DNA of 64,000 nucleotides, taken from Phyllobates terribilis. Taxonomy: Eukaryota. Of the stretch, positions 3,274 to 57,800 are shown one piece after another. The stretch lies in the NCBI RefSeq assembly GCF_046119375.1, contig NW_027362771.1, positions 621,922,001 through 621,986,000 of the forward strand, given 5' to 3'. The position numbers were made by a program, and so were the translations under genes. Under the pieces are notes generated by a model. It searched no databases. It saw only the letters and a program-made list of their open reading frames with translations, and was not told the origin of the DNA. How positions within the stretch are numbered: the first letter of the stretch is position 1; every line of letters starts with the position of its first letter.

Positions 3274-5956
3274 GTGAAAACAGCTGTAGAGGAAAAGTCT
3301 GCATGTGTTGAAACTGCATTTAATATCAGTACAGGCTCATCTGCAAAGCATATGTGGTGTATAGACTCTGGTGCTAGCAGCCATATGACAAATAACAAGG
3401 ATTACTTCACTGACCTTGATGAAAGCAAGTCAGAAAAGGTCATCTTAGCAAATGGTCAATATATGACTTCAGAAGGAGTACGAGATGACTACCTCCACTG
3501 TCCAACTTCCTCAGCACAAAGCAGAAAGATCGCAGTAAATTTGTTCTCTATGTCCCCAGTCTTGAAAGCAATCTTTTGTCAGTAAAGAAGCTTATGCAAA
3601 AGGGAATGTAGTTACTTTTAAAGACAACAGCTGCATTATATCAAAGATAGGTCATACTCTTGCAGAAGGAAAAATCCAAAATGAACTTTATCAGCTAAAA
3701 TGCAAAGAAATAGTGTACAGTGCTAGACAAGATCTGCATAATAACTGTATCCATGGCACAGACGTCTTGGGCACAGAGACCCAGAAGCAATTAGGAAGCT
3801 AGGTCAACTTGCAAATGGTGTGGAAATCTAATAATGTAGTCAAATGATGAATTGCACTAGCTGTCTTAAATGGAAAATGTCCAGAAAATCCTTTCCTAAA
3901 GTAAGCACCACAAGATCTGCACAGCCACACACAGATTTTTGCGGTCCAATGAGTGTTCAAACTCCAAGCAAGAAGAGATATTTTCTCACATTTATTGATG
4001 ACTACTCTAGATATACAGTCGCCTACCTGCTTCACAGCACGAATGAAGTTCCACAGAAACTTGAAGAATATCTTGCCATAGTATTTAACAAATTTGGAAA
4101 AATGCCAAAAGCCATGCGTGCAGATAATGGGACTGAATATACAAATGGTAAGGTGCAAACTATTTTGAAAAAGAATGGAATCGTGTTCCAGACTACAATC
4201 CCATACAACCCAGAGCAGAATGGCATTGCAGAGAGAAAGAACCGCATTCTCTGTGAAAATGGAAGAATTATGTTGTTTGATGCGAATCTACCTACGATGC
4301 ATTGGGGAGAAGCCACCACGACAGCTTGCTATCTTCAAAACAGACTGCCAGGTAAAGCCACAAATAAAACTCCATATAAGCTATGGAACTGTGAGAAGCC
4401 TAACCTGAAGCACCTAAGGATATTTGGAAGCAAAACGTTTGTGTATGTTCCCAAAGAAAAACGTTCCAAGTGGGAATCACATGCAAACCAAGGAATCCTG
4501 GTGTGCTATAGCGAAACTCAAAAGGGATACAGAATTTTGCACCCAGAGACCAACACAGTAACAATCAGCAGAGACATAGTGATTGATGAGAACTCAGTTT
4601 CGCTCAAATTCCATGAAGTTACACCAATCATTCAAGCCAAGAAACAAGAACAAGAATCTCAATCACCAAACCCAGACACTGAAAAAGAAAACACTGATGT
4701 CTGGATAAGCTCTGAAGCCAGCAAGAAAGAAACAGAAGAACCAAGTCAACCTCGAGTCAGGAGATCAGAAAGACCAAACAAAGGTATCCCAGCTAGACAC
4801 CTTTCTTATATGGTCAGAACACTTCCTGAACCAGTTTGGACTGTCGGAAGCCAAAGGTGCATCAGCACCAATGGATCCATCCTACTTAGAGTTGGAAGGA
4901 AGATCTGCTACCCAACAATGAGAGTTACAGACAAGCAGTGGGGGCCCTTCTGTATATAGCAACCAAAACTTGTCCAGATATTACAGCCACAGTTGAAATT
5001 CTCTGCCGACGTGTAACTCCACAAAAAAGAGAGAAAGGTAGACAGAGAGCACACCAATCTAAGTGTAGTATATGGCGGTAATATGAATATTTATAATGGT
5101 CTTTTGCACTCACCTTTATTTGGTCTTTCAATTCAGCTTACCGATCACTAAGGATCGCAAAGAAAGGGATTTTCTCTTTTCAGTTGGTTTGCTGCATACA
5201 CCTGGTGGCTATTCAATAGCCCTGCTCGGGTTATCATAGGAAAGAGATTTTGACAATAATGTTCATCCAGGCCTAATGCGCTCCCAAGAAGCCAGTGAAT
5301 ACTGTGGGTATATATTCTGCAAATGATCTTTATTGCTCAAGTATTTACAATTGTCAAAAACTGCTGACATGTAATCAAGCCATACCAAAGAGACTGGAGC
5401 GCAACTAAGAGAATTCTACAATATCTTAATGAAACTCAAAGGCTAATTCTTAAGATATCTGCATCAGGAGTTCTCAGTCTCAGAGGTTATGTGGATGCAG
5501 ATTTGGCTGGAGATACAAGTGATCGGAAATCAACAAGTGGTTACTTGTTCAAGTTAGGACAAAATTTCTTGGTCCAGCAGAAAACAAGTGTTAGTCGCAT
5601 TGTCTTCTACAGAAGCAGAATATGTGTCACCTGCTTATGCAAGTCAAGAAGCTTTTTGGTTGAAACAACTTTTGGAAGATTTCGGCAATCCACTAGCTCA
5701 GCCAACAGTTTTCTATGAGGACAACCAATGATGTATTAAACTTGCCAGCAGTGAGAAGATTAGTGCAAGGACTAAACACATCGACGTTAAACATCACCAC
5801 TTACGTGACTTAGTAGAATGTGGTGTACTAGAGTTTGTTTATTGCGAGTCTGACAAGATGTTAGCTGATGGTATGACAAAAGCATTTCCAAGAGCCAAGT
5901 TTGAGGACTTCAGAACCTCAAAGGGACTAACAGGATAAGTAGTTGTTGAGTGGGGG
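3274..5956 (+). mobile_element. Ty1/copia LTR retrotransposon internal region, decayed (protease, integrase, RT C-terminus, RNase H)
   Basis: WCIDSGASSHM (copia protease); DFCGPM...FIDDYSR...DNGTEY...EQNGIAERKNR (integrase); YVDADLAGDTSDRKSTSG and ARTKHIDVKHH (copia RNase H); order PR-IN-RT-RH; frameshifts and stops. Confidence 0.93.
3844..4959 (+). pseudogene. Copia integrase-containing ORF remnant (371 aa)
   Basis: rve-type D,D,E motifs as above; the frame is lost after the integrase C-terminal region. Confidence 0.88.
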
Positions 5957-20279: not shown

Positions 20280-21070
20280 CCTTTATGGAGAACAATATTT
20301 GCACCAAAAAATTTTAATCTGAGATGTAGCCTGCTTTATATACCACTGTAGTGAGAAAAACAATTTTCAGTTTATCTTGTCAGTGTACCCCTGTGTGAAG
20401 AACAATATTTGCACCAAAAAATTAATTTCACTACAGTATAACTATTGCAAAGAAGGCCAAACCCTCTTCCACTACAGCCAACCCAGCAGATGGAGACCCA
20501 ATCAGGATTCTCCACATTAACAAGACTTAGTGGCAGACACCAGCGAAGTGGCATCAATTTCACTACAGTAGAAATAGTTTAATTAGGACTGACACATCTT
20601 CCACTACAGCCAACCCAGCAGATGGAGACCTAACCAAAAGTGTTCACATTTCCCTAAATTAGGGCATAACACCACCTAAGTGGCATCAATTTCACTAGAG
20701 TAGAAGTAGTATAATGAAGACCAAAACCTCTTCCACTACAGCCAACCCAGCAGATGGAGACCCAATTAGGATTCCTCACATTTACAAAAATTAGTGGCAG
20801 ACACCATCCAAGTGGCATCAATTTCACTAGAGTAGGAGTATAATGGAGACTGACACCTCTTCCACTACAGCCAATCCAGCAGATGGAGACCCAATCAGGA
20901 GTGTTCACATTTCCCTAAATTAGGGCCTAACACAACAGAAGTGGTGTCAATTTCACCAGAGTAGAAGTAGTATAATGGAGATCAAAACCTATTCTACTTC
21001 AGCCAACCCAGCAGATGGAGACCCAATCGGGATTCTCCACATTTCCAAAAATTAGTGGCAGACACCAGCA
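20280..21070. repeat. Tandem array of an approximately 130-bp unit (hAT subterminal)
   Basis: CTTCCACTACAGCCAACCCAGCAGATGGAGACC recurs about every 130 bp; the same unit occurs at 45870-46420 and 48030-48290. Confidence 0.9.
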
Positions 21071-21581
21071 AAGTGAGATGAAAAGAATAGAAAAGGAGGC
21101 CTTCAAGGTGGGCTGTGACAGGCGGGACAGGTGAACGGCAAAGTAATTATTGTTTTTTATACTTTTGCTGGTACTCTATGGTTCAGTATAATGTCCTCCA
21201 TCTGGCCGCCATCTGCTTACATTTTTGCAGTGAAAATCCCCCAGAATTCAAATTTTGGAAAATTAGAGAATTCCATTCTACTCAAACAAATTTGCTCATC
21301 TCTACTTTTGAACCATTCTGGTAAGTTTGCAATGCATTATTATTCTGATAAGTAACTTTTAGAGTTCCATTCAGAAAAAAAAAAACTACAACATTTTACC
21401 TTTAATAAAGGTGTTCATCCTAGCTTTAACATTCAGATATGGTGAAGAAGCTGCCTCTATAAAGATCCCCAGAGTGAAGGGAAAATCATGTAAGTATAAA
21501 TTTGGAGTTAGAATAGGTACATTTCCTAAAAAATTGTCACTTCTCAGTCACAGACCTTGTACCACTTGGATATATCCTTTA

Positions 21582-45800: not shown

Positions 45801-45869
45801 CCTGCCGGTCTGGGAGGCCTACTGCTACAGGCAAGACACATGAAGGAGACCCAATTAGGAGTCTCACCA

Positions 45870-46420
45870 TTTCCAAAAATTAGGGCCAGACACCACCAAA
45901 GTGGCATCAATTTCATTAGAGTAGAAATAGTATAATTAGGACCGACACCTCTTCCACTACTGCCAACCCAGCAGATAGAGACCCAATCAGGAGTGTTCAC
46001 GTTTCCCTAAATTAGAGGGCAGACACAACCAAAGTGGCATGAATTTCACTAGAGTAGAAATAGTATAATGGAGACCGACACCTCTTCCACTACAGCCATC
46101 CCAGCAGATGGAGAAGCAACCAGGAGTGTTCACATTTCCGTAAATTAGAGGCTGACACCACCAAAGTGGCATCAATTTCAGTAGAGTAGAACTAGTATAA
46201 TGGGGACTGACATTTCTTCCACTACAGCCAGCCTAGCAGATGGAGACCCAATCAAGAGTGTTCACATTTCACTAAATTAGGGGCTGACACCACTAAAGTG
46301 GAATCAATTGCAGTAGAGTAGAAATAGTATAATAGGGACTGACACCTCTTCCACTACAGCCAACCAAGCAGATGGAGACCCAACCAGGAGTCTCCACATT
46401 ATCCAAAATGTAAAGGCTGA
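45870..46420. repeat. Approximately 131-bp tandem unit; continues at 48030-48290 after the LTR insertion
   Basis: Same unit as 20280-21070. Confidence 0.88.
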
Positions 46421-46423
46421 CAC

Positions 46424-48029
46424 TGTCACGCAAGGCGTGGGAAAGACTTAGTGCAACACAGAGGGAAGAGGGAAAGAGAGCCCAGACACTAGGGAAAGAG
46501 GGGAGTGGAGACCTCCTAGTCTGGTCTAGTGTCACCCTTTCTCAACTAATGTCCCTATATTGGCTCTTCACCAATTGCGGCACGTGTGCCTTGTCCTGTC
46601 TTTCCATGGCATATGGCTAAGGCTAGGTAAGGGAAAAGATGAGCACTAGTCGATCTCCACTAAACTCTATAGACAACAAGGGCAGACAAAAAGGGGGGAA
46701 TTTCTTAGCTTAAGATGACTCCAGACAAATGCGCACACAGCCTCAAGCTCCAGAGAGGATGAAGTACTGCTCTTGCTAAAGCCTCACAAGTAGTGATGAA
46801 TATCGCCGTCACCTCCCTCTGAGACACACTAGTTATTTATACACCCAGGCAAGGGAAGACAAACAGCAGAGCCAGAACAATAAACAGATTTTTTAAAACA
46901 AATTCCAAAGTCAAATTAGAAAATAGCAAATGGCAATAGTACTCACCAACAGCCGGCCCCCTTTTGCTAGAAGGAGGTAACACAGGTGCAGAATTCTGAT
47001 GAACAATCACTGTCACCCACTCTCATTGGAGGAGCGACTGCCTAGCACTAAAACTGCACACAGATGAAAGTTGAAGTAGGGTGCAATTCACACACACGAG
47101 GCACCGTGCCTAGTCAGCATCGCAGAGGTGCAAAGCCCCAACTCACAAGGTCACCATTAATTGGCCTGGCTGCACCCTGGCAGATAAAAAGGAGCAAAAA
47201 TATCATATGAGGTATTAGTTAACATTTTGGCCAAAATACGTAAGCTCGCAACCCATCGTGAAGGGTCCTCACGATTTTGCGAGTCCCTACTCTATCATTA
47301 AAAACAAACAGCATAGCCAGAACAATAAACAGAGTTTTTTAAAAAAATTACAAGGTCAAATTAGAAAATAGCAAAAGGCAATGGTACTCACCAGCCAAAG
47401 GTTCAAGAAAAATGCACACCAACCAGGAGTCTCGACATTTCCAGAAAGTAGAGGCTGACAATGTCACGCAAGGCATGGGAAAGACTTAGTGCAACACAGA
47501 GGGAAGAGGGAAAGAGAGCCCAGACACTAGGCAAAGGGGGGAGTGGAGACCTCCTAGTCTGGTCTAGTGTCACCCTTTCTCAACTACTGTCCCTTTATTG
47601 GCTCTTCACCAATTGCGGCATGCGTGTCTCATCCTGTCTTTCCATGGCGTATGGCTAAGGCTAGGGAAGGGAAGAGATGAGCACTAGTCGATCTCCAATA
47701 AACTCTATAGACAGCAAAGGCAGACAAAAAGGGGGGAATTGCTTAGCTTAAGATGACTCCAGACACATGCCCACACAGCCTTAAGCTCCAGAGAGGAAGA
47801 AGTACTGCTCTTGCTAAAACCTCACAAATAGTAATGAATATCGCCGTCACCTCCCTCTCAGACACACTACACTAGGTATTTATACACCCAGGCAAGGGAG
47901 CTAATTAGCCAAAGGGAGGTAGCTGCTAGGTCCTAGAGGCAGCCTCTAGGAAGATGTCTGTAATGCCAAACGTAGAGATCTCCTGCAACCAACTGCAGGG
48001 CGACTGTCACCTCTGACACACCCGTAACA
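46424..48029 (-). mobile_element. Probable solo LTR (47462-48029) with a partial upstream duplicate (46424-46855)
   Basis: TGTCACG...CGTAACA termini; GACAC at 46419-46423 and 48030-48034 as a 5-bp TSD; minus-strand TATAAATAA near 46838. Confidence 0.65.
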
Positions 48030-48482
48030 GACACCAGCGAAGTGGTATCAATTTCACCAGAGTAGAAATAGTATAATGGGGATCAACATCTCTTCATTAC
48101 ATCCAACCCAGCAGATGGAGACACAATCAGGAGTGTTCACATTTCTAAATATTAGTGGCACACACCACCGAAGTGGCATCATTTTCAGTAGAGTAGAAAT
48201 AGTATAATTAGGACTGACACCTCTTCTACTACAGCCAACCAAGCAGATGGAGACCCAACCAGAAGTGTTCATATTTATAAAAATTACTGTTAACATCTGC
48301 AGTAGCAGCAGACACAGAAGCCACGCTACATATATAACAGACTGCAATTACGCGAGATCAATGCAGCACACTAAAAACTACATCTCCTAGTCTGTACAGT
48401 CTACGATTGGGGTGCCAAAGTCCTTGGAGATCCATGACTTGCTCATCTTGATGAAAGTTAGGCAGTGTACACTTTCAGGGGA

Positions 48483-50182
48483 CATATAATCAAAGTTTCT
48501 CAGCAGGTGCATATTAACTAATGATTAGAGCTCCATGGCTAGCACCTAATGACATTTACTGTAGGCAAATCGCTAGTCATAAATACACAGCGAAGGGAAA
48601 GATGCGATCAAAGCTACACAGCAGGTAATTATCATAAAATATAGCTTTTATTAAATATATAATTAAAAGAGAATACACCACATAATATAGCAGAAACAGT
48701 GCACAACATACATATCAAAAATATCTTAAAATACCATCATGCTCAATGGACACAGAGGTCCACATATAGGCCACCCACCAGGACTATAATATAGACTCTA
48801 ATGCACCTGATTAACAGATCTCTAATATATGTGTCCAAATAGTGTATCATTAGTGGTCAGCTAATATTGCCTAACTGTATATTGACATAACCATGTAAAT
48901 GACCATATAGTATGGTAATAGAATCTACCTGGACAGAGGGCTATCAGCGGGGGTGCTCCAATGTGGACCACGCGTCCACCCCGACGCGCGTTTCGGCGTT
49001 ACCTTCTTCAGGGGGCGTGGTTGCAAACCGGGGGTGTGTCCTTATAAACCTATCGCTAGCCAATAGAAAGGTGTGGGCGGACATCTAATGACGCGCCCAG
49101 CGTCTCTGCTGCCTCGGCAACCCGCGATGCCGGCATCATGCGAAGGACCTCCCAACAGTCACGTGGGCCCACGTGACCCGCAGGTCCTAGCATGAAGACG
49201 CCGGGTAGCGCGAGCCGACCTCAGCAACAGAGAACGCCTGCACGTACCTGTCCAAGAACCGCACCTATATAATTAGGATTAAGTAAGGTATTCTTTGACC
49301 CAGCTAGAGGTCCTTCTTAAGATTGCCCTCAACTACCTCAGGGACTGCAAGTAAGGGTGCATGTAGTGAAATGTCCAATTATAAATCTACAACTACCCAC
49401 ATCAATCCAGTGGTAGGGCATAATACAAAAATCTCCCATAAAGAAAGAATGCAAATATGCATAGCGACATATATCAATATATGGACAATTTCACACATAC
49501 CACGAACCTCACCATATGCGTCAAGTTACACCTGACACTACTAAATCATCACTGCACAAAGTACCTATCAAACATACATGATCATAATAGTCATAATAGC
49601 ATTAAATGATACAAGACATATGATCACAGTAATGTTGTGCAAGTAAATTACAATAACACTGTTTGTCCAATAGGCAGGACCAATAACCACACATATGGAA
49701 GGCCCAACCACATATATCACAACATACAATCTCCTAAGAGATGAAAGCAATACAAAATACAATACTTATTTAGACAAAGTTCACAATGTGAGCAAGGAGG
49801 TTTATAGACTTTGGCGATTGCTGTGCAACGATATCACGAATCCTTCATCTCCTCCACAAACACTCATCCATAATGGAACGGATATAATACGGACACAACC
49901 CTCCAAAAAGAAAGTTCGCAGACCATTTTACGATGGAAGAAACTGTGAATAATAAAATAAAATAAATAAAAACTTAAAAACACAGATGACATGTACTAGG
50001 TAGAGCGGATATCAAAGAAACGGAGCAAAACTGAGACTCTCATTCAGTCCATGCGGGTGTACAGTGCCCAATTTCCAGATCCATCTGGATTCTAGTTGAG
50101 CTAGACGTTGACTAAATTTGCCTCCACGAATACCAACCTTCAAAGCATCAATCCCCCTCACCCTCAGTAGTGAGCTGTCACA
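48483..50182 (-). repeat. Downstream pseudo-LTR, 1700 bp
   Basis: Direct repeat of 53120-54813; includes the last 57 codons of the ORF. Confidence 0.96.
48976..49020 (-). ncRNA. Minimal type I hammerhead ribozyme, downstream copy
   Basis: Minus strand CCACGCCCC-CUGAAGA-AGGUAACGCC-GAAAC-GCGC-GUC-GGGGUGG: catalytic core, GUC cleavage triplet, CCCC/GGGG stem I and palindromic ACGCGCGU stem III. Confidence 0.85.
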
Positions 50183-53149
50183 ATTATGGCAGAGTTTAAA
50201 ATGTCGTGGTATCGTCCTGAGTGTGGAGGGATCCATACAGTCGGCTGCCGCCAAAATACCCAACACATGCTCCCTAACTCGCCCTTTGAGTTGCCGTGTG
50301 GTAAGACCAACATAGATTAATCCACATGGACATGTGGCATAGTAGATAATAAACCGTGAGGTACATGTAATCCGACTTTTGATGACATAAGTCGCTGTAC
50401 CCGCAGCATTAGAAAAAGTATCAGTACACTCTATATTTGGACAGGCGACACAACGGCCGCATGGAAAACTTCCACACTCAGGACTAGAAGCGCCAAAAAT
50501 TGTAGCAGTCCCAGATTGAAATTGATAATGGCTATGTACCAGACAGTCCCGAAGATTTTTTGAGCGGCGCACAGCAATAGATGGGCGACCTGGAAGGATT
50601 TTAGACAAAACAGGGTCGACAAGGAGAATTGGCCAAGCTTTAGCCAAACATTCCCTCATCCGGCCAAATTGACCATGATAGTCAGTTATAAATCTTGGTT
50701 TATCTTCTGATTTTGGAATCTTTTTCTTATAAAGCAAATCATGTCTATTGGAATATTTGGCACGATGGTATGCCCTTTTTACCATGCGTTTGCTGTAGCC
50801 CCTCTCATAGAATCTCTTTTTCAAATCTTCGGACTGTCTGGCAAAATCCACATCATCCGAGCAGAGTCTACGTAAACGCAGGAACTGTCCGATGGGGATA
50901 GACTGAATCACCCAAGGAGGGTGGGAGGATGATGCATGAAGCAACATATTCGTGGAGGTATTTTTACGATAGATATTTGTTTTTATAAAATTATCCTGAT
51001 CCCTAGTAAGGGCCACGTCTAGGAAATTCACCACATCCCTATCCCATGTATAGGTAATGCGAATATTCCTATCATTATCATTGAGGGATTGCATGAATAT
51101 TTTCAAGCCCTCAATGGAACCCTGCCAGATCAGCAGGATATCATCTATGTAGCGCGTCCAGAACGGGACGTGGTCCATAGATGTCCTCTGATCCAGCAGG
51201 GAGAGGTCCCTCTCCCACAGCCCCAGGAACAGGTTGGCATAGGCCGGCGCAAGTGCCGCACCCATAGCTGTACCCTGGAGCTGTAGGTAGAAGGACCCCT
51301 TAAATGTAAAAAAATTATGAGTTAGAGAAAATTCTAACAGATCCATCACCAATTGAATCATAGCATTTTGTAAATTAGATGTTTCCAAGAAGAAGGCACA
51401 AGCTCTCAGGCCATCAGAATGTTTGATGCTGGTGTACAGTGATTCTACATCACCTGTCACCAGCATCATATCTGACTCCAAATACAGCCCATCAACTCTC
51501 TTGAGAAGCTCACCTGTATCCAGGAGGAATGATGGGAGGCATTCTACCAGGGGTTGAAGCTTACTGTCTATCCACCGATTGACATTATCAAGGAAGTTCC
51601 CAGTCCCAGAAATAATAGGACGCCCAGGTGGTGTAGACAGATCTTTGTGCACTTTAGGCAACAGATAGAATGTAGAGACTACGGGTTCGCTAACAAGTAG
51701 TGCTGAAGCCAGTTCCTCAGTGATGACCCCATTGGTCGTGGCTTTATTAATGATCTTAGACAGTTGGAGGGAGAAGGAGGCCAAGGGATTAAACGTCAAA
51801 CGTTTATAGCAGGTCTTATTATTAAGTTGACTAAATGCCTCCCTTTCATACATGTCCTTAGGCCACAACACAATGTTGCCACCCTTGTCTGCTGGCTTCA
51901 GCACTACATCTGGAAGGTCCCGAAGGACCCAGAGGCGCTCACGCTCATGTCTAGTAAGATTATCCCTCCGTACATAACGCGGGATCTGCTCAAACTCCTT
52001 GGTGACCACCTGAACAAACAGATCTATGTTGGCGCTTGTGGACAGTGGGGGAAATCTCTTAGACTTGGCCCTAATGGAAGCAGGGATCTTACCTCCTTCC
52101 TCCATATTATGTTCGCTAGAAAGTTCCTCCAAAGTTCGTAAGGCTATTTGTTCCTCCTCTGTTGGAAAAAGATTAAATTGTGCCTCATTAAAATAATACT
52201 TCTTAAACAACAGAGTTCTCGCGAACAAATGGAGGTCTTTCACAGCTGAAAAAACATCAAAACTACTCTTAGGTGAGAAGGAGAGACCCCTGCCTAGCAG
52301 AGCCAAGTCAGTATCAGTAAGTGCATATTTACTAAGGTTAATTACCTTATTATCCCCACTGTCCACAAGCGGCTGTTTATACGGACGGCGTCTGTACGGG
52401 TGGAAATTTGCATCTCGTGTCCTCTTAAGGTTCAGTCCTGACCTCGTAATGATGGATGAGGACGTCATACTAGATGAGTCACTGAGAGATGAGATGGATG
52501 TAACAGACGAAGAGCGTTGCGCCATATGAGGTTGGATAATAGACTTCCTCCAGTGATATACTGTATTAGTTGCAAAATCACGTTGATCTCTTGCCATTTT
52601 TGTCGCTTGAGTGTCATGTAGTTTTTTTACACAAAGATCTAAATTCCTATCAATTGATGCATCAAAGTCCTGGATTTTATCAGTAGGGCAAGTATTTCTC
52701 AATATAATTTGTGCTTCATCGATAGATTTATCCAGTGCTAAAATGGCGTTAGTATTGTGTTCAATCAATAACTGCATAAATCCAGTGGAGCATGTATTAC
52801 AGAGACCTTCCCAGTTAGACATGAAGTCTTTATCATCAACTACAAATGTGGGAATAACCCGCACCCTCAGTCCTCTTGGAATCAACTTACTGGAAATATA
52901 CCTCTGCAAAAAGGCCCTATTCCACCACAATTTTGTCCGTTTGATAATTAAGGACTGTATGGACTGAATTTGATTGTCCCAGTCCCGCTCGTTCTCTACC
53001 CGTGGTTCTGCACCACCTGTGCCAAATACCTGCTCCATCTGGTCGAGCCAGGTCTGTTCCTTAGCTCTAAAATTCATTGCTATTGGAAACAAAATAGTAG
53101 TGCATAACACACAAAAAGTCATATAATCAAAGTTTCTCAGCAGGTGCAT
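50012..53149 (-). CDS. Penelope-like polyprotein, 1045 aa, open: N-terminal domain, RT, Cys-rich linker, GIY-YIG endonuclease (true start may be the Met at 53077)
   Basis: IPRGLR; KPADKGG; FYLLPKVHK..PPGRPII; DVESLYTSI; GTAMG; RYIDD; FLDV; CGRCVAC; IIYYATCPCGLIYVG.T.R.LK.RVREH; GLNE. Confidence 0.96.
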   Translation of the reverse strand: MHLLRNFDYMTFCVLCTTILFPIAMNFRAKEQTWLDQMEQVFGTGGAEPRVENERDWDNQIQSIQSLIIKRTKLWWNRAFLQRYISSKLIPRGLRVRVIPTFVVDDKDFMSNWEGLCNTCSTGFMQLLIEHNTNAILALDKSIDEAQIILRNTCPTDKIQDFDASIDRNLDLCVKKLHDTQATKMARDQRDFATNTVYHWRKSIIQPHMAQRSSSVTSISSLSDSSSMTSSSIITRSGLNLKRTRDANFHPYRRRPYKQPLVDSGDNKVINLSKYALTDTDLALLGRGLSFSPKSSFDVFSAVKDLHLFARTLLFKKYYFNEAQFNLFPTEEEQIALRTLEELSSEHNMEEGGKIPASIRAKSKRFPPLSTSANIDLFVQVVTKEFEQIPRYVRRDNLTRHERERLWVLRDLPDVVLKPADKGGNIVLWPKDMYEREAFSQLNNKTCYKRLTFNPLASFSLQLSKIINKATTNGVITEELASALLVSEPVVSTFYLLPKVHKDLSTPPGRPIISGTGNFLDNVNRWIDSKLQPLVECLPSFLLDTGELLKRVDGLYLESDMMLVTGDVESLYTSIKHSDGLRACAFFLETSNLQNAMIQLVMDLLEFSLTHNFFTFKGSFYLQLQGTAMGAALAPAYANLFLGLWERDLSLLDQRTSMDHVPFWTRYIDDILLIWQGSIEGLKIFMQSLNDNDRNIRITYTWDRDVVNFLDVALTRDQDNFIKTNIYRKNTSTNMLLHASSSHPPWVIQSIPIGQFLRLRRLCSDDVDFARQSEDLKKRFYERGYSKRMVKRAYHRAKYSNRHDLLYKKKIPKSEDKPRFITDYHGQFGRMRECLAKAWPILLVDPVLSKILPGRPSIAVRRSKNLRDCLVHSHYQFQSGTATIFGASSPECGSFPCGRCVACPNIECTDTFSNAAGTATYVIKSRITCTSRFIIYYATCPCGLIYVGLTTRQLKGRVREHVLGILAAADCMDPSTLRTIPRHFKLCHNCDSSLLRVRGIDALKVGIRGGKFSQRLAQLESRWIWKLGTVHPHGLNESLSFAPFL

Positions 53150-54813
53150 ATTAACTAATGATTAGAGCTCCATGGCTAGCACCTAATGACATTTACTGTA
53201 GGAAAATCGCTAGTCATAAATACACAGCGAAGGGAAAGATGCGATCAAAGCTACACAGCAGGTAATTATCATAAAATATAGCTTTTATTAAATATATAAT
53301 TAAAAGACAATACACCACATAATATAGCAGAAACAGTGCACAACATACATATCAAAAATATCTTAAAATACCATCATGCTCAATGGACACAGAGGTCCAC
53401 ATATAGGGCACCCACCAGGACTATAATATAGACTCTAATGCACCTGATTAACAGATCTCTAATATATGTGTCCAAATAGTGTATCATTAGTGGTCAGCTA
53501 ATATTGCCTAACTGTATATTGACATAACCATGTAAATGACCATATAGTATGGTAATAGAATCTACCTGGACAGAGGGCTATCAGCGGGGGTGCTCCAATG
53601 TGGACCACGCGTCCACCCCGACGCGCGTTTCGGCGTTACCTTCTTCAGGGGGCGTGGTTGCAAACCGGGGGTGTGTCCTTATAAACCTATCGCTAGCCAA
53701 TAGAAAGGTGTGGGCGGACATCTAATGACGCGCCCAGCGTTTCTGCTGCCTCGGCAACCCGCGATGCCGGCGTCATGCGAAGGACCTCCCAACAGTCACG
53801 TGGGCCCACGTGACCCGCAGGTCCTAGCATGAAGACGCCGGGTAGCGCGAGCCGACCTCAGCAACAGAGAACGCCTGCACGTACCTGTCCAAGAACCGCA
53901 CCTATATAATTAGGATTAAGTAAGGTATTCTTTGACCCAGCTAGAGGTCCTTCTTAAGATTGCCCTCAACTACCTCAGGGACTGCAAGTAAGGGTGCATG
54001 TAGTGAAATGTCCAATTATAAATCTACAACTACCCACATCAATCCAGTGGTAGGGCATAATACAAAAATCTCCCATAAAGAAAGAATGCAAATATGCATA
54101 GCGACATATATCAATATATGGACAATTTCACACATACCACGAACCTCACCATATGCGTCAAGTTACACCTGACACTACTAAATCATCACTGCACAAAGTA
54201 CCTATCAAACATACATGATCATAATAGTCATAATAGCATTAAATGATACAAGACATATGATCACAGTAATGTTGTGCAAGTAAATTACAATAACACTGTT
54301 TGTCCAATAGGCAGGACCAATAACCACACATATGGAAGGCCCAACCACATATATCACAACATACAATCTCCTAAGAGATGAAAGCAATACAAAATACAAT
54401 ACTTATTTAGACAAAGTTCACAATGTGAGCAAGGAGGTTTATAGACTTTGGCGATTGCTGTGCAACGATATCACGAATCCTTCATCTCCTCCACAAACAC
54501 TCATCCATAATGGAACGGATATAATACGGACACAACCCTCCAAAAAGAAAGTTCGCAGACCATTTTACGATGGAAGAAACTGTGAATAATAAAATAAAAT
54601 AAATAAAAACTTAAAAACACAGATGACATGTACTAGGTAGAGCGGATATCAAAGAAACGGAGCAAAACTGAGACTCTCATTCAGTCCATGCGGGTGTACA
54701 GTGCCCAATTTCCAGATCCATCTGGATTCTAGTTGAGCTAGACTAAATTTGCCTCCACGAATACCAACCTTCAAAGCATCAATCCCCCTCACCCTCAGTA
54801 GTGAGCTGTCACA
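53120..54813 (-). repeat. Upstream pseudo-LTR, 1694 bp
   Basis: Direct repeat of 48483-50182, differing by a few substitutions and one 6-bp deletion. Confidence 0.96.
53613..53657 (-). ncRNA. Minimal type I hammerhead ribozyme, upstream copy
   Basis: Identical to 48976-49020, offset 4637 bp. Confidence 0.85.
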
Positions 54814-57800
54814 GGGGACAGCTGGATGCGCTTATCCATTAGGACTCCACCAGCAGCACTGAAGACACGTTTTCAGAGAACGCTGGCTGACGGGCATGAT
54901 AAAACCTCCAAGGCGTGACAGGCAAGCTCAGGCCACTCATCCATTTTTGAAGAACAAAATGTAAATGAGTCCAAACCCTCCCTGATGGTATTGATATTGA
55001 GCTCTAAATACTCCTGCACTATAATCTCCAGTAGTTTACTGTGTGTCAGACTTTTACTCATTTGTGCTGGTGCATGAGCTGGTCTAAAAAATATGTGAAA
55101 GGACTCACAGAAACTGCTTCTGCCACATACACTGCTGCTGCTGATAATGTTTTTGCATTGATGAATTGACGTGCTGGAGGTTGAAAGTCTAGAGCTGCAA
55201 TGCACACTGTGTGCCTCACTGCTGTCTTGGGGAAAACCTCTCTTAAGGTTGTGTAAAAGGTTGTTTCGAAACTCCAGCATTCGCAGGTCCTTTCCAGGGT
55301 GGGAAAAATCTGGAAAAATGTATTCATATAACGTGGCTCTAACAGAGTGGCAACCCAGTAGTCAGCATTATTTTGAATCCTAACTAAATGAGAATCATGT
55401 TCCAGATAGTGCAGCAAGAAAGTGCTCATATGTCGGGCTCTTCCATAAGGTCCAAGGCCATGGTGTGTTGATGGATGAGTAACACTGATGTTTGTTTCCT
55501 CCATCCCCTTCCACCAACCATGAACAACAGAGAGGAGATGATTATCCTCTTCATCTCCTGACTGTTGCTCACCCATCACCTCTTCCTCCTCCAATGGTTC
55601 CTCGACTCTTGCACCTTCATTAACAGTTTGTCTGGTATCACCAGCCTCCCTCGATCGCAGTAATCCACCCTCCCTTGGCACCCACCTGTGTGACAACAGT
55701 CTGGAACTTTGAGACATTTTTATCCCTTCCGCATCCTCCTCTTCCTCTGGGAATACCACCTCCTCCCGCAGGCTATTGAAAGTCTGCTCCAGCATGTAGA
55801 TAACCAGAATAGTGATGCTGATGATGATATCATTAGGGCTAACCGCCTTAGTAGCCATTTTGAATCTGTGCAGAAGGGAGCAAAGGTCCTTAATCAATTC
55901 AAGTCGATAACCTGAGGGGTGTAAAAGGAGGTAATGGGCACACAGCTTCTGTGCTTTCTGCAGCAGCTCATCCAGGCCAGGATAGTGGCGGAGAAATCGC
56001 TATACCACCAGGTTGATGATGTAGGTCATGCGAGGCATGCGTGTGAGCTTGCATCGGCCTAGGGCCAGGACCAGGTTTGCACCGTTATTGCACACAGCCT
56101 TCCTTGGCTCTAGGTTCAGCGGAGACAGACATTGCTCAAACTCAGCCTGGAAAGCTGTCTACAACTCTTCAGCTGTATAACTGCAATCTCCAAGGCATAT
56201 TAATTTTAACACTGCCTGATTGCGGTGAGTCCTGGCAGTGCAGTATGGAGGTGGTGTGGATTCGATCTGCACTGTTGAAATGCGTTACTCATTAAGGCAG
56301 AGGTTGAGTGTGCTGATGGAAGCCCTAGATGAGGTGGAGGATGCAGAAGAAGTGGAGTAAGTGTGAAATACAGAGATTTGTCCTGCAAGCCTTGGGGATT
56401 CAAAGACTGGTGGAGCAGCCCCTTCCCCACCTACCCTCACATCCATCAGAGTCACCCAGTGCCCAGTCAGCGAGATGTAATGCCTTTGGCCATGCTTACT
56501 CGTCTAGGTGTCTGTGATGAAATGCACCCTGGCAGACATAGATTTAGTCAATGGGTAATTTGTCTGCATCATGCTGGTGTAGAACAGGCACAGCTTTCTT
56601 AGAGAAGTAATGCCGATTGGGCAACTGGAACTGGGGTACTGCGGCCGCCATCAGATTTTGTAAGCCATCTGTATCTACCAGGTGGAAAGGCAGCATTTCC
56701 GTGGCCAATAGATTGGAGATGGTGGAGTTCAACCTCTTAGCTTTGTCATGTGTAGAATGAAACAATCTTTTATGTGACCTAAATTGTGGGACCGAGCGCT
56801 GGTTGCAGTGCTGAGAGAGGGCGGTGTACAGTGAAACCGGACAAACTGCTGGACTGTGAGTGAGGTGCAGTCGGAGATTGTATGGTGGATTGAGAAAGAT
56901 GTGGTGTGCTCGGTGATGTAAAAACAGCAAGCATGTCCGCTTACATTACAGCTTACGGGCTCTCGCTCAGCCTGACTGGAGTGGGTAAAGAATTGGAGGC
57001 TCTGCGGTCGGAGACCTGCGTGACAATACTTGGCAGGGTAACATGCGTTACTGTGGCAATATTACAGCGATAAAATGTGGACTAGTGGATCTCAACAGCT
57101 ATCAGCATTTTTTTTTGCAAAGTTGGCTGATAACGTGAGTTGGCTCATCCTTTGTGGTGTCAAAAAGACCCAGGCTAGGCAACCCTTGCCGCCCCTGCGA
57201 GCGTCAGCTCCTGTGAGTGGCAGACCCGTGACTGCTGCTAGCCACAGCCACAGTTGTGGCTATGGATGCAGTGCTTGTCGTGGTTGCATCACTCCATGTC
57301 TGTGCCTTAGGGAGCAACAGACCCTCCTCGTCTTCCTCCTCCTACACCTCCTCAGATTACCTACTCAGCTGCGTGCCTCTAGGTTCACACCAAGAGGGAT
57401 CTACAACCTCATCATCATTTTCTGTGCTATCCCATTCTTCGCTTCAAGAGTCACCCTCCTCCTCTTCCTGCCCTGACAACACAGTACAGTCCGAATGAGC
57501 CTCAGGTATCTGAGTCTCATCAGGATAACCTCCCCCCGGGGGTTAACTTCTGGTGATGAGGGTCAGAATGCTGCTCGCACCCTACTTCATCCTGCCCAGG
57601 TGCAGATGATTTTCTCCTCTTGACTCTGAATCTTTTGAGTACACTTCTGATGCCCATGGTATAGCATGTGTGTTCAGCTCTGCAGACTCATCCATCTGTG
57701 ATTCCCTACAGTTAGTTGGGCGGTTGGACAGTTGTGATGCAGGGGGAAGCAAGGGTAATTGGGGTGCCACCTCTGAAGACTGCACTGTGTGTGATGTTGA

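What the first reader, a model, noticed from the sequence alone, without database searches (positions are those of the whole stretch)
48976..53657. Paired palindromic-loop hammerheads that would cut out a 4637-nt unit RNA containing the whole Penelope ORF
Seen: each pseudo-LTR has an identical minus-strand motif CCCC-CUGAAGA-AGGUAACGCC-GAAAC-GCGC-GUC-GGGG. Stem III is only 2 bp but lies in the self-complementary octamer ACGCGCGU. Established: PLEs carry minimal type I hammerheads, and short palindromic stem III hammerheads (as in newt satellite 2) cleave as dimers. Inference: one transcript contains both copies, which could pair as a double hammerhead and cleave after 53620 and 48983. That would release a 4637-nt monomer with the full ORF and ligatable 5'-OH and 2',3'-cyclic phosphate ends, so it might circularize. 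The general class is known; an intact vertebrate copy with both ribozymes and an open ORF is a ready test system.
Basis: partly seen in the sequence, partly recalled or inferred. Interest (0 to 1): 0.75.

Follow-up and report, generated by a model that had tools for sequence, protein, structure and literature searches.

The report
Intact Penelope retrotransposon with twin hammerheads
This is a young, intact frog-type jumping gene of a known kind with a self-cutting RNA motif at each end, and the way its sister copies begin and end suggests that its long copies are likely made from an endless, possibly circular, RNA template, an idea published earlier but not yet tested in cells.

Summary
Observation confirmed: identical type I hammerheads at 53614-53654 and 48977-49017 (minus), GUC sites 4637 nt apart, flanking an open 1021-aa Neptune-type Penelope ORF. 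The palindromic stem III is the Rfam consensus, with 3534 such motifs in this genome, and the dimer-cut-then-circularise model is already in print (Cervera 2014). The copy is not unique: 9 intact units were found in 8 loci.

New here is a census of sister copies. Copying starts at two fixed sites 400 and 500 nt downstream of the cut. Short copies stop at a predicted transcription start at the hammerhead's 5' edge with the ribozyme uncut (52 of 168 first passes, two families). Copies longer than one unit never stop there (0 of 21; p=0.001). Four of 16 ends near the motif fall at the cut. This fits cutting plus circularisation, but a ribozyme-free template jump fits nearly as well. A linear cut monomer cannot by itself explain this insertion, and the proposed back-junction equals genomic sequence. 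No usable RNA evidence. The scan noted related hammerhead and end patterns before, on other DNA of this genome.

The parts
48483..54813 (-). Whole Penelope-like insertion, 1.37 tandem units (unit 4637 bp)
   Evidence: self-BLAST; empty-site joint 48484-54875 in two runs
53120..54813 (-). Upstream pseudo-LTR (1694 bp; starts 170 bp inside the ORF 3' end; private 6-bp deletion)
48483..50182 (-). Downstream pseudo-LTR (1700 bp)
53614..53654 (-). Hammerhead 1, type I; predicted cut between 53620 and 53619
   Evidence: RF00163 26.5 bits
48977..49017 (-). Hammerhead 2, identical; predicted cut between 48983 and 48982
53678..53717 (-). Predicted promoter: GC box 53717-53712, ATTGG 53701-53697, TATA-like TTTATAAG 53685-53678
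   Evidence: read; a TATA-like box sits 30-42 nt before CUGA in 12 of 19 distinct hammerhead types against 1 of 19 in a control window
53655..53656 (-). Inferred transcription start, 7-8 nt before CUGA
   Evidence: 9 of 25 stub arms end at the two equivalent bases, the rest within 9 nt; same pile-up in a second family
53080..53565 (-). Predicted 5' UTR intron (CAG|GTAGAT ... CCAATAG|CAATG); holds all 17 upstream AUGs and both copying starts
   Evidence: not shown by RNA; no spliced genomic copy found
50012..53077 (-). ORF, 1021 aa: DKG 397, YIDD 643, CX4CxxC linker 868, IIY/CPC/YVG 910-924
48583..48583 (-). Short copying start (second copy at 53220): 50 of 129 arms end within unit 4533-4543
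48483..48484 (-). Long copying start and 3' end of this insertion (second copy at 53120): 61 of 129 arms end within unit 4630-4637
54812..54820 (-). Target-site duplication, upstream copy (TGTCCCCTG)
48476..48484 (-). Target-site duplication, downstream copy
54822..55058 (-). Host: broken hAT transposase remnant, split by the insertion; its frame resumes below 48483
   Evidence: PF05699 21.9 bits, cut-off 21.4

Best explanation
This is a young, intact Neptune-type Penelope-like retrotransposon with one ordinary type I hammerhead in each pseudo-LTR; RNA that carries both hammerheads is likely cut twice and joined into a 4637-nt circle, which likely serves as the endless template for more-than-one-unit copies like this one. 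Steps: (1) transcription starts about 7 nt before the core (inferred from copy ends and a TATA-like box). (2) Capped RNA spliced at 53565-53080 is the mRNA (predicted). (3) Unspliced RNA is copied from two fixed internal sites 400 and 500 nt past the cut, usually one per arm of a head-to-head insertion (shown from copy ends). (4) RNA with a single hammerhead, as from the many truncated copies, mostly stays uncut and gives stubs ending at the start site (stubs shown; source inferred). (5) RNA with two hammerheads pairs them through ACGCGCGU, probably with protein help, is cut and ligated (inferred, untested). (6) Copying round the circle rebuilds the upstream promoter (inferred). The identity of the element is about 0.95 certain; the confidence below is for the circle mechanism.
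For: First pass of the predicted start: 25 of 99 arms stop in this family and 27 of 69 in a second family (census of 80 exact motifs). Later passes: 0 of 11 and 0 of 10; pooled Fisher p=0.0012. 11 more later passes in other tandem loci also run through. An arm ending at the start is never paired with a long arm (0 of 18 against 29 of 32), so there are two template classes. All 6 differences between this copy's pLTRs are absent from the 14-34 other young arms covering each site, and tandem units differ equally up- and downstream of the cut (0.50% and 0.54%): one unit was copied repeatedly. Arms reach 2.08 and about 2.95 units, and both arms can exceed one unit. Four of 16 ends inside or just behind the motif lie at the cut +/-1 (L139, L085, L184, L277; post hoc p=0.007); L184 is an ORF-spanning copy. 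The core is about tenfold less variable than the sequence downstream. Axolotl retrozymes with a like stem III cut better as dimers and form circles in vivo (PMC7229834, passages).
Against: Naiad and most Chlamys PLEs lack canonical hammerheads yet form pseudo-LTRs and tandems (PMC8557442, passages), so a ribozyme-free route exists. In anole Poseidon, hammerhead mutants insert normally in vitro and RNA-seq showed no ends at the cut (PMC11167929). Minimal PLE hammerheads cut weakly even as dimers; 8 of 9 Xenopus dimer elements showed no cleavage. In this family alone the first-versus-later contrast is not significant (p=0.066). Stubs ending at the start outnumber those at the cut 25 to 2. Stem II is only 3 bp (pair probability 0.03), and the free dimer fold is a misfold, not the double hammerhead. 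The two motifs are 4.6 kb apart. L184 begins at the cut but keeps its second hammerhead, which fits a singly cut linear RNA. The copies examined are not a random sample.
Confidence: 0.45

Rival explanations
1. Template jump without a circle: the RT starts in the 5' pLTR of an uncut, terminally redundant transcript, reaches the capped end and transfers to the 3' repeat, as LTR elements do. Stubs are failed jumps on RNAs that lack the repeat. The hammerhead has a side role, such as decapping mRNA or trimming read-through RNA.
For: It predicts the same two template classes, the same lack of later stops and the same identical pLTRs. Hammerhead-free PLEs make tandems. The hammerhead is dispensable in vitro. 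Eight arms end within about 200 nt of one full unit, against 1.8 expected (post hoc, biased sample), as if copying stalls on returning to its own start.
Against: It does not explain the strong conservation of the core or the ends at the cut. It needs the RNA cleared from the cDNA; Pfam found no RNase H domain in the ORF. The one-unit stall fits a circle too.
Confidence: 0.33
2. Long copies come from linear read-through RNA of rare master arrays of more than two units, or from host promoters. The arrays are renewed by unequal crossing-over between the long repeats.
For: Arrays of about 3 units (L181-L182) and a three-hammerhead array (L262) exist. It is the scenario sketched in PMC11167929.
Against: No array over 2.08 units was found in this family, while intact 1.x-unit copies are more numerous and should give start-ended full-length children; none was seen in 21 later passes. 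Units within a locus differ about as much as the inverted arms made in the same event.
Confidence: 0.14
3. The hammerhead cuts once only, or in trans between RNAs, to trim the 5' end; or the motif is kept mainly as part of the promoter and first exon and rarely cuts.
For: It sits exactly at the predicted start. Most stubs are uncut. L184 and L277 show a cut 5' end. The predicted fold is mostly inactive.
Against: It does not explain why ORF-spanning copies never stop at the start, nor the stem I and II pairings kept with changed sequence across 19 hammerhead types (14 of 19 have stem I of 4 bp or more).
Confidence: 0.08

Closest known systems
Hammerheads of metazoan PLE pseudo-LTRs (Cervera and de la Pena 2014, PMC4209133; read abstract, results and discussion, parts 1-2 of 4)
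   Same: Type I motif in both repeats, extra nucleotide before stem II, G10.1-C11.1 pair, palindromic helix III; dimer and circle model proposed there.
   Different: Stem II here is 3 bp, not the long helix of the minimal consensus. Stem I is 6 bp. No copy-end census relative to the start or the cut in the parts read.
Poseidon of Anolis carolinensis (Frangieh et al. 2024, PMC11167929; read main text, parts 1-2 of 4)
   Same: Vertebrate EN+ PLE; two internal RT starts that define a tail; hammerhead near the 5' end; unprocessed RNA is used as template.
   Different: Other clade (this ORF has the Cys linker). Here the starts are 100 nt apart and lie in a predicted intron, and the cut is 540 nt upstream of the ATG rather than inside the ORF.
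Neptune-clade EN+ PLEs (Craig et al. 2021, PMC8557442; passages)
   Same: RT, CX2-5CxxC linker, C-terminal GIY-YIG; partial tandem, inverted 5' copy, tail, 5' UTR intron.
   Different: The tail is 100 nt, not 30-40. Two-armed insertions mostly have 13-15 bp target duplications (46 of 78 loci). No tree was built to separate Neptune from Nematis.
Amphibian non-LTR retrozymes (PMC7229834, passages; bioRxiv 10.64898/2026.07.22.740005, parts 1-3 of 5)
   Same: Weak palindromic helix III, dimer cleavage; circles shown for axolotl.
   Different: They are non-coding, 170-400 nt, with adjacent hammerheads; here the pair is 4.6 kb apart around an ORF.
Drosophila virilis Penelope (Schostak et al. 2008, PMC2377424; passages)
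   Same: [quoted passage not shown]
   Different: Penelope has an internal TATA-less promoter. Here a TATA-like box lies upstream of the start, so start-ended copies would lose it.

Membership tests
EN+ Penelope-like element | Single ORF, RT followed by a C-terminal GIY-YIG endonuclease | tested here: met
   1021 aa, DKG and YIDD. RVT_1 E 2.3e-5 and GIY-YIG E 0.0089, both below Pfam cut-offs. Full-length frog homologues at 56-58% identity.
EN+ Penelope-like element | Partial-tandem pseudo-LTRs, inverted 5' copies, optional tail, target-site duplication | tested here: met
EN+ Penelope-like element | Retained intron in the 5' UTR | tested here: inconclusive
   Predicted from sequence; no spliced RNA contig and no spliced genomic copy.
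Neptune clade | CX2-5CxxC linker between RT and EN | tested here: met
   CGSFPCGRC at residue 868; feature taken from PMC8557442; shared with Nematis and Naiad
Neptune clade | RT phylogeny with Neptune references | not tested
   No named reference set was held. Neptune is preferred because only Neptune and Poseidon were reported in vertebrates.
Type I hammerhead (RF00163) | CUGANGA, GAAA, NUH core with three helices | tested here: met
   All core bases present
Type I hammerhead (RF00163) | Rfam gathering score of 34 bits | tested here: not met
   26.5 bits; the short stem II aligns as a local gap
Type I hammerhead (RF00163) | Self-cleavage at the NUH site | not testable with these tools
   Only an indirect sign: four copies begin at the cut
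Non-LTR retrozyme | Short non-coding tandem unit | tested here: not met
   The unit is 4637 bp with an intact ORF
Non-LTR retrozyme | Circular RNA in vivo | not testable with these tools
   Only contigs of guessed RNA runs were available

The most novel reading that the evidence does not exclude
The genome records ribozyme gating: RNAs with one hammerhead stay uncut and yield promoterless stubs, while RNAs with two hammerheads 4.6 kb apart cut as a dimer and circularise. Rolling-circle reverse transcription of this 4.6-kb coding circle is how an autonomous vertebrate retrotransposon rebuilds its own upstream promoter.
Probability: 0.35. Interest if true: 0.75.

Novelty: new member of a known kind. 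Interest (0 to 1): 0.45.

Why it matters
How Penelope-like elements regenerate their pseudo-LTR, and what their hammerheads do, are stated as open in PMC2377424 and PMC8557442. The element itself is ordinary, but its copy ends narrow the options. Full-length templates lack a 5' end at the start site, most short templates are uncut, and both copying starts lie inside the predicted intron, which would explain why introns are retained. Private SNPs in this copy's two repeats give a locus-specific test for the circle.

Tried and rejected
RNA runs: no RNA holder was listed; four guessed-RNA contig sets held 12-17% of the words. Laid contigs cover parts of the element and several cross the cut. One 190-nt contig ends one base from the cut, but contigs cannot show ends. 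No intron joint appeared. None of this is used as evidence.
Spliced genomic copies: two exact patterns gave 0 matches; this does not show absence.
Alternative folds: a downstream GACGCGY that could block the cut site has pair probability about 0.02, and a bulged stem Ia/Ib variant is 5 kcal/mol weaker than the 6-bp stem I. Both were rejected as main structures.
pLTR alleles cannot separate circle from jump, because the start and the cut are 36 nearly invariant bases apart.
Rows left out: one search merged or dropped 12 of 141 alignment rows (split arms, short internal pieces, one local duplicate, one 56-nt piece). Only one of five near-identical unplaced duplicates (C268, C36, C29, C17, C167) was used. 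L196/L232 were counted once. L173 (three hammerheads in a minisatellite, one starting at CUGA; structure not resolved) and L185, L179, L186 (ends unresolved) were left out, and L278 and L279 did not align. Of 147 intron-anchor matches only the first 100 were listed.
Lunse et al. (dimer cleavage of PLE hammerheads) is not held; I saw only its citation in PMC6765202. Four paper searches listed no copy-end census of this kind; subscription papers and supplements were not seen and may hold one.
No structure prediction or tree was run.

Full report
Observation. The two minus-strand motifs are identical and lie where stated. Rfam scores both as Hammerhead_1 at 26.5 bits, under the gathering score of 34. 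The cut sites after 53620 and 48983 are 4637 nt apart and enclose an open frame of 1021 aa from ATG 53077. Stem I has 6 bp, stem II 3 bp after an extra A, and stem III 2 bp with a GCGC loop. The octamer equals the Rfam consensus. The 10.57-Gb genome holds 3534 exact matches to the core pattern and none to the reversed control.

The element. It spans 48483-54813 as 1.37 units, with repeats of 1700 and 1694 bp at 99.35% identity, flanked by a 9-bp duplication inside a broken hAT remnant. The protein has DKG, YIDD, a CX4CxxC linker and a GIY-YIG-like end. Its best homologues are full-length frog proteins at 56-58% identity. By the linker (PMC8557442) and the vertebrate distribution it is Neptune-type; no tree was built. 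Nine intact units were found in 8 loci of this family, so the copy is not unique.

What is published. Cervera and de la Pena reported hammerheads in both repeats of PLEs, weak dimer cleavage, and the proposal that cut ends are ligated into circles that template more-than-unit copies. A 2019 review repeats it. Axolotl retrozymes cut better as dimers and form circles. In anole Poseidon, RT starts at two internal sites, the hammerhead needs protein, is dispensable for insertion in vitro, and no RNA ends were found at the cut.

Predicted transcript. A GC box, ATTGG and a TATA-like box precede the hammerhead; 30 nt after the box is 53655, the 5' edge of stem I. A TATA-like box lies 30-42 nt before CUGA in 12 of 19 distinct hammerhead types, against 1 of 19 in a control window. 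A loose donor-like motif follows the cut in 18 of 19, without a control. Exon 1 (90 nt) has no AUG; the 486-nt predicted intron holds all 17 upstream AUGs and ends 2 nt before the ATG. Cutting would thus remove the cap. Splicing is not shown.

Folding. The active monomer is 5.8 kcal/mol above the best fold and stem III has probability about 0.001. The octamer duplex is -13.3 kcal/mol. The free two-strand fold keeps the palindromic duplex but is not the double hammerhead. Across 45 loci the motif is 1.0% variable, against 11-12% for the rest of exon 1 and the intron and 4-6% upstream.

Copy ends, this family. From loci chosen by five searches (not a random sample), 129 arms in 79 loci were mapped. 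3' ends: 61 at 500 nt and 50 at 400 nt past the cut; 39 of 50 two-armed loci have one of each. Both sites are in the predicted intron, so only unspliced RNA offers them near the 5' end. This insertion ends at the 500-nt site, so a linear monomer cut at 48983 cannot have templated it in one pass. 5' ends: 25 of 99 arms that reach the predicted start stop there with the hammerhead intact (0.4 expected from background); only 2 begin at the cut. None of 11 later passes stops there (p=0.066). A start-ended arm never partners a long arm (0 of 18 against 29 of 32).

Replicate. In a second family all 80 exact motifs were listed; 70 were fetched as short loci, one lay in an earlier locus, and 9 downstream members of tandems were counted as passes by position. 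First pass: 27 of 69 stop. Later passes: 0 of 10 (p=0.013; pooled p=0.0012). The short loci cannot exclude that some start-ended copies there are full-length with a mutated second motif. Eleven more later passes in other tandem loci also ran through.

Repeat identity. All five substitutions and the deletion between this copy's repeats are absent from other young copies. Tandem units differ by 0.50% upstream and 0.54% downstream of the cut; 72 of 101 differences in nine loci are private or nearly so, and 29 recur elsewhere. The repeats were most likely identical at insertion.

Signs of cutting. L184, an ORF-spanning copy of a sister family with a GUU site, and L277, a stub, join flanking DNA at the cut. 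With L139 and L085, that is 4 of 16 ends in a 59-nt window (post hoc p=0.007).

Reading. Two template classes exist: capped, uncut RNA that gives stubs, and a template with no end at the start site that gives long copies. A ligated cut-to-cut circle explains this together with the conserved core and the cut-site ends (0.45). A template jump on uncut redundant RNA explains the first part equally well and suits hammerhead-free PLEs (0.33). Master arrays (0.14) and a single or marginal cut (0.08) fit less well. Shown: anatomy, conservation and end distributions. Inferred: start site, intron, cleavage, dimer, ligation and circle.

Verdict. A new member of a known kind, with a published model. The copy-end census adds indirect evidence and a SNP-phased test. 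I found no such census in four searches, but closed papers were not seen, and earlier notes of this scan reported related end patterns in this genome. Interest 0.45.

Noticed in passing
L142, L143, L144 (G000 C4, 452, 482 and 544 Mb): Three structurally different insertions share the same target site and nearly identical downstream flank in a repeated sequence, suggesting a preferred site.
   Followed up: partly
window about 51120-51200, around the YIDD codons: A long RNA hairpin (-52 kcal/mol over 105 nt) surrounds the YIDD codons; 10 alignment 5' ends fall at unit 1878-2030, perhaps RT pausing.
   Followed up: partly
arms ending at unit 33-71 and 4442-4504: Eight arms stop near one full unit length against 1.8 expected (post hoc, biased sample).
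   Followed up: partly
L180-L190: Sister families (about 76-79% identical in the ORF 5' part) use a GUU cleavage triplet, and some have GUGC in loop III, which is still self-pairing through G-U.
   Followed up: no
L264, L265 (C1 591.2 Mb; C3 377.2 Mb): Head-to-head insertions in which both arms exceed one unit, with four hammerheads per insertion.
   Followed up: partly
two-armed loci: Target duplications are mostly 13-15 bp (46 of 78 loci); the window's one-armed copy has 9 bp.
   Followed up: no
contigs C268, C36, C29, C17, C167: The same inverted pair of truncated copies recurs on five small contigs, probably a duplicated segment or an assembly effect.
   Followed up: no
window about 48647-48652 and 53284-53289: An AATAAA lies in the predicted intron, upstream of both copying starts; templates must read past it.
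   Followed up: no
window 45823-48284 and 20421-21075: A 132-bp repeat family in short arrays beside the element.
   Followed up: no
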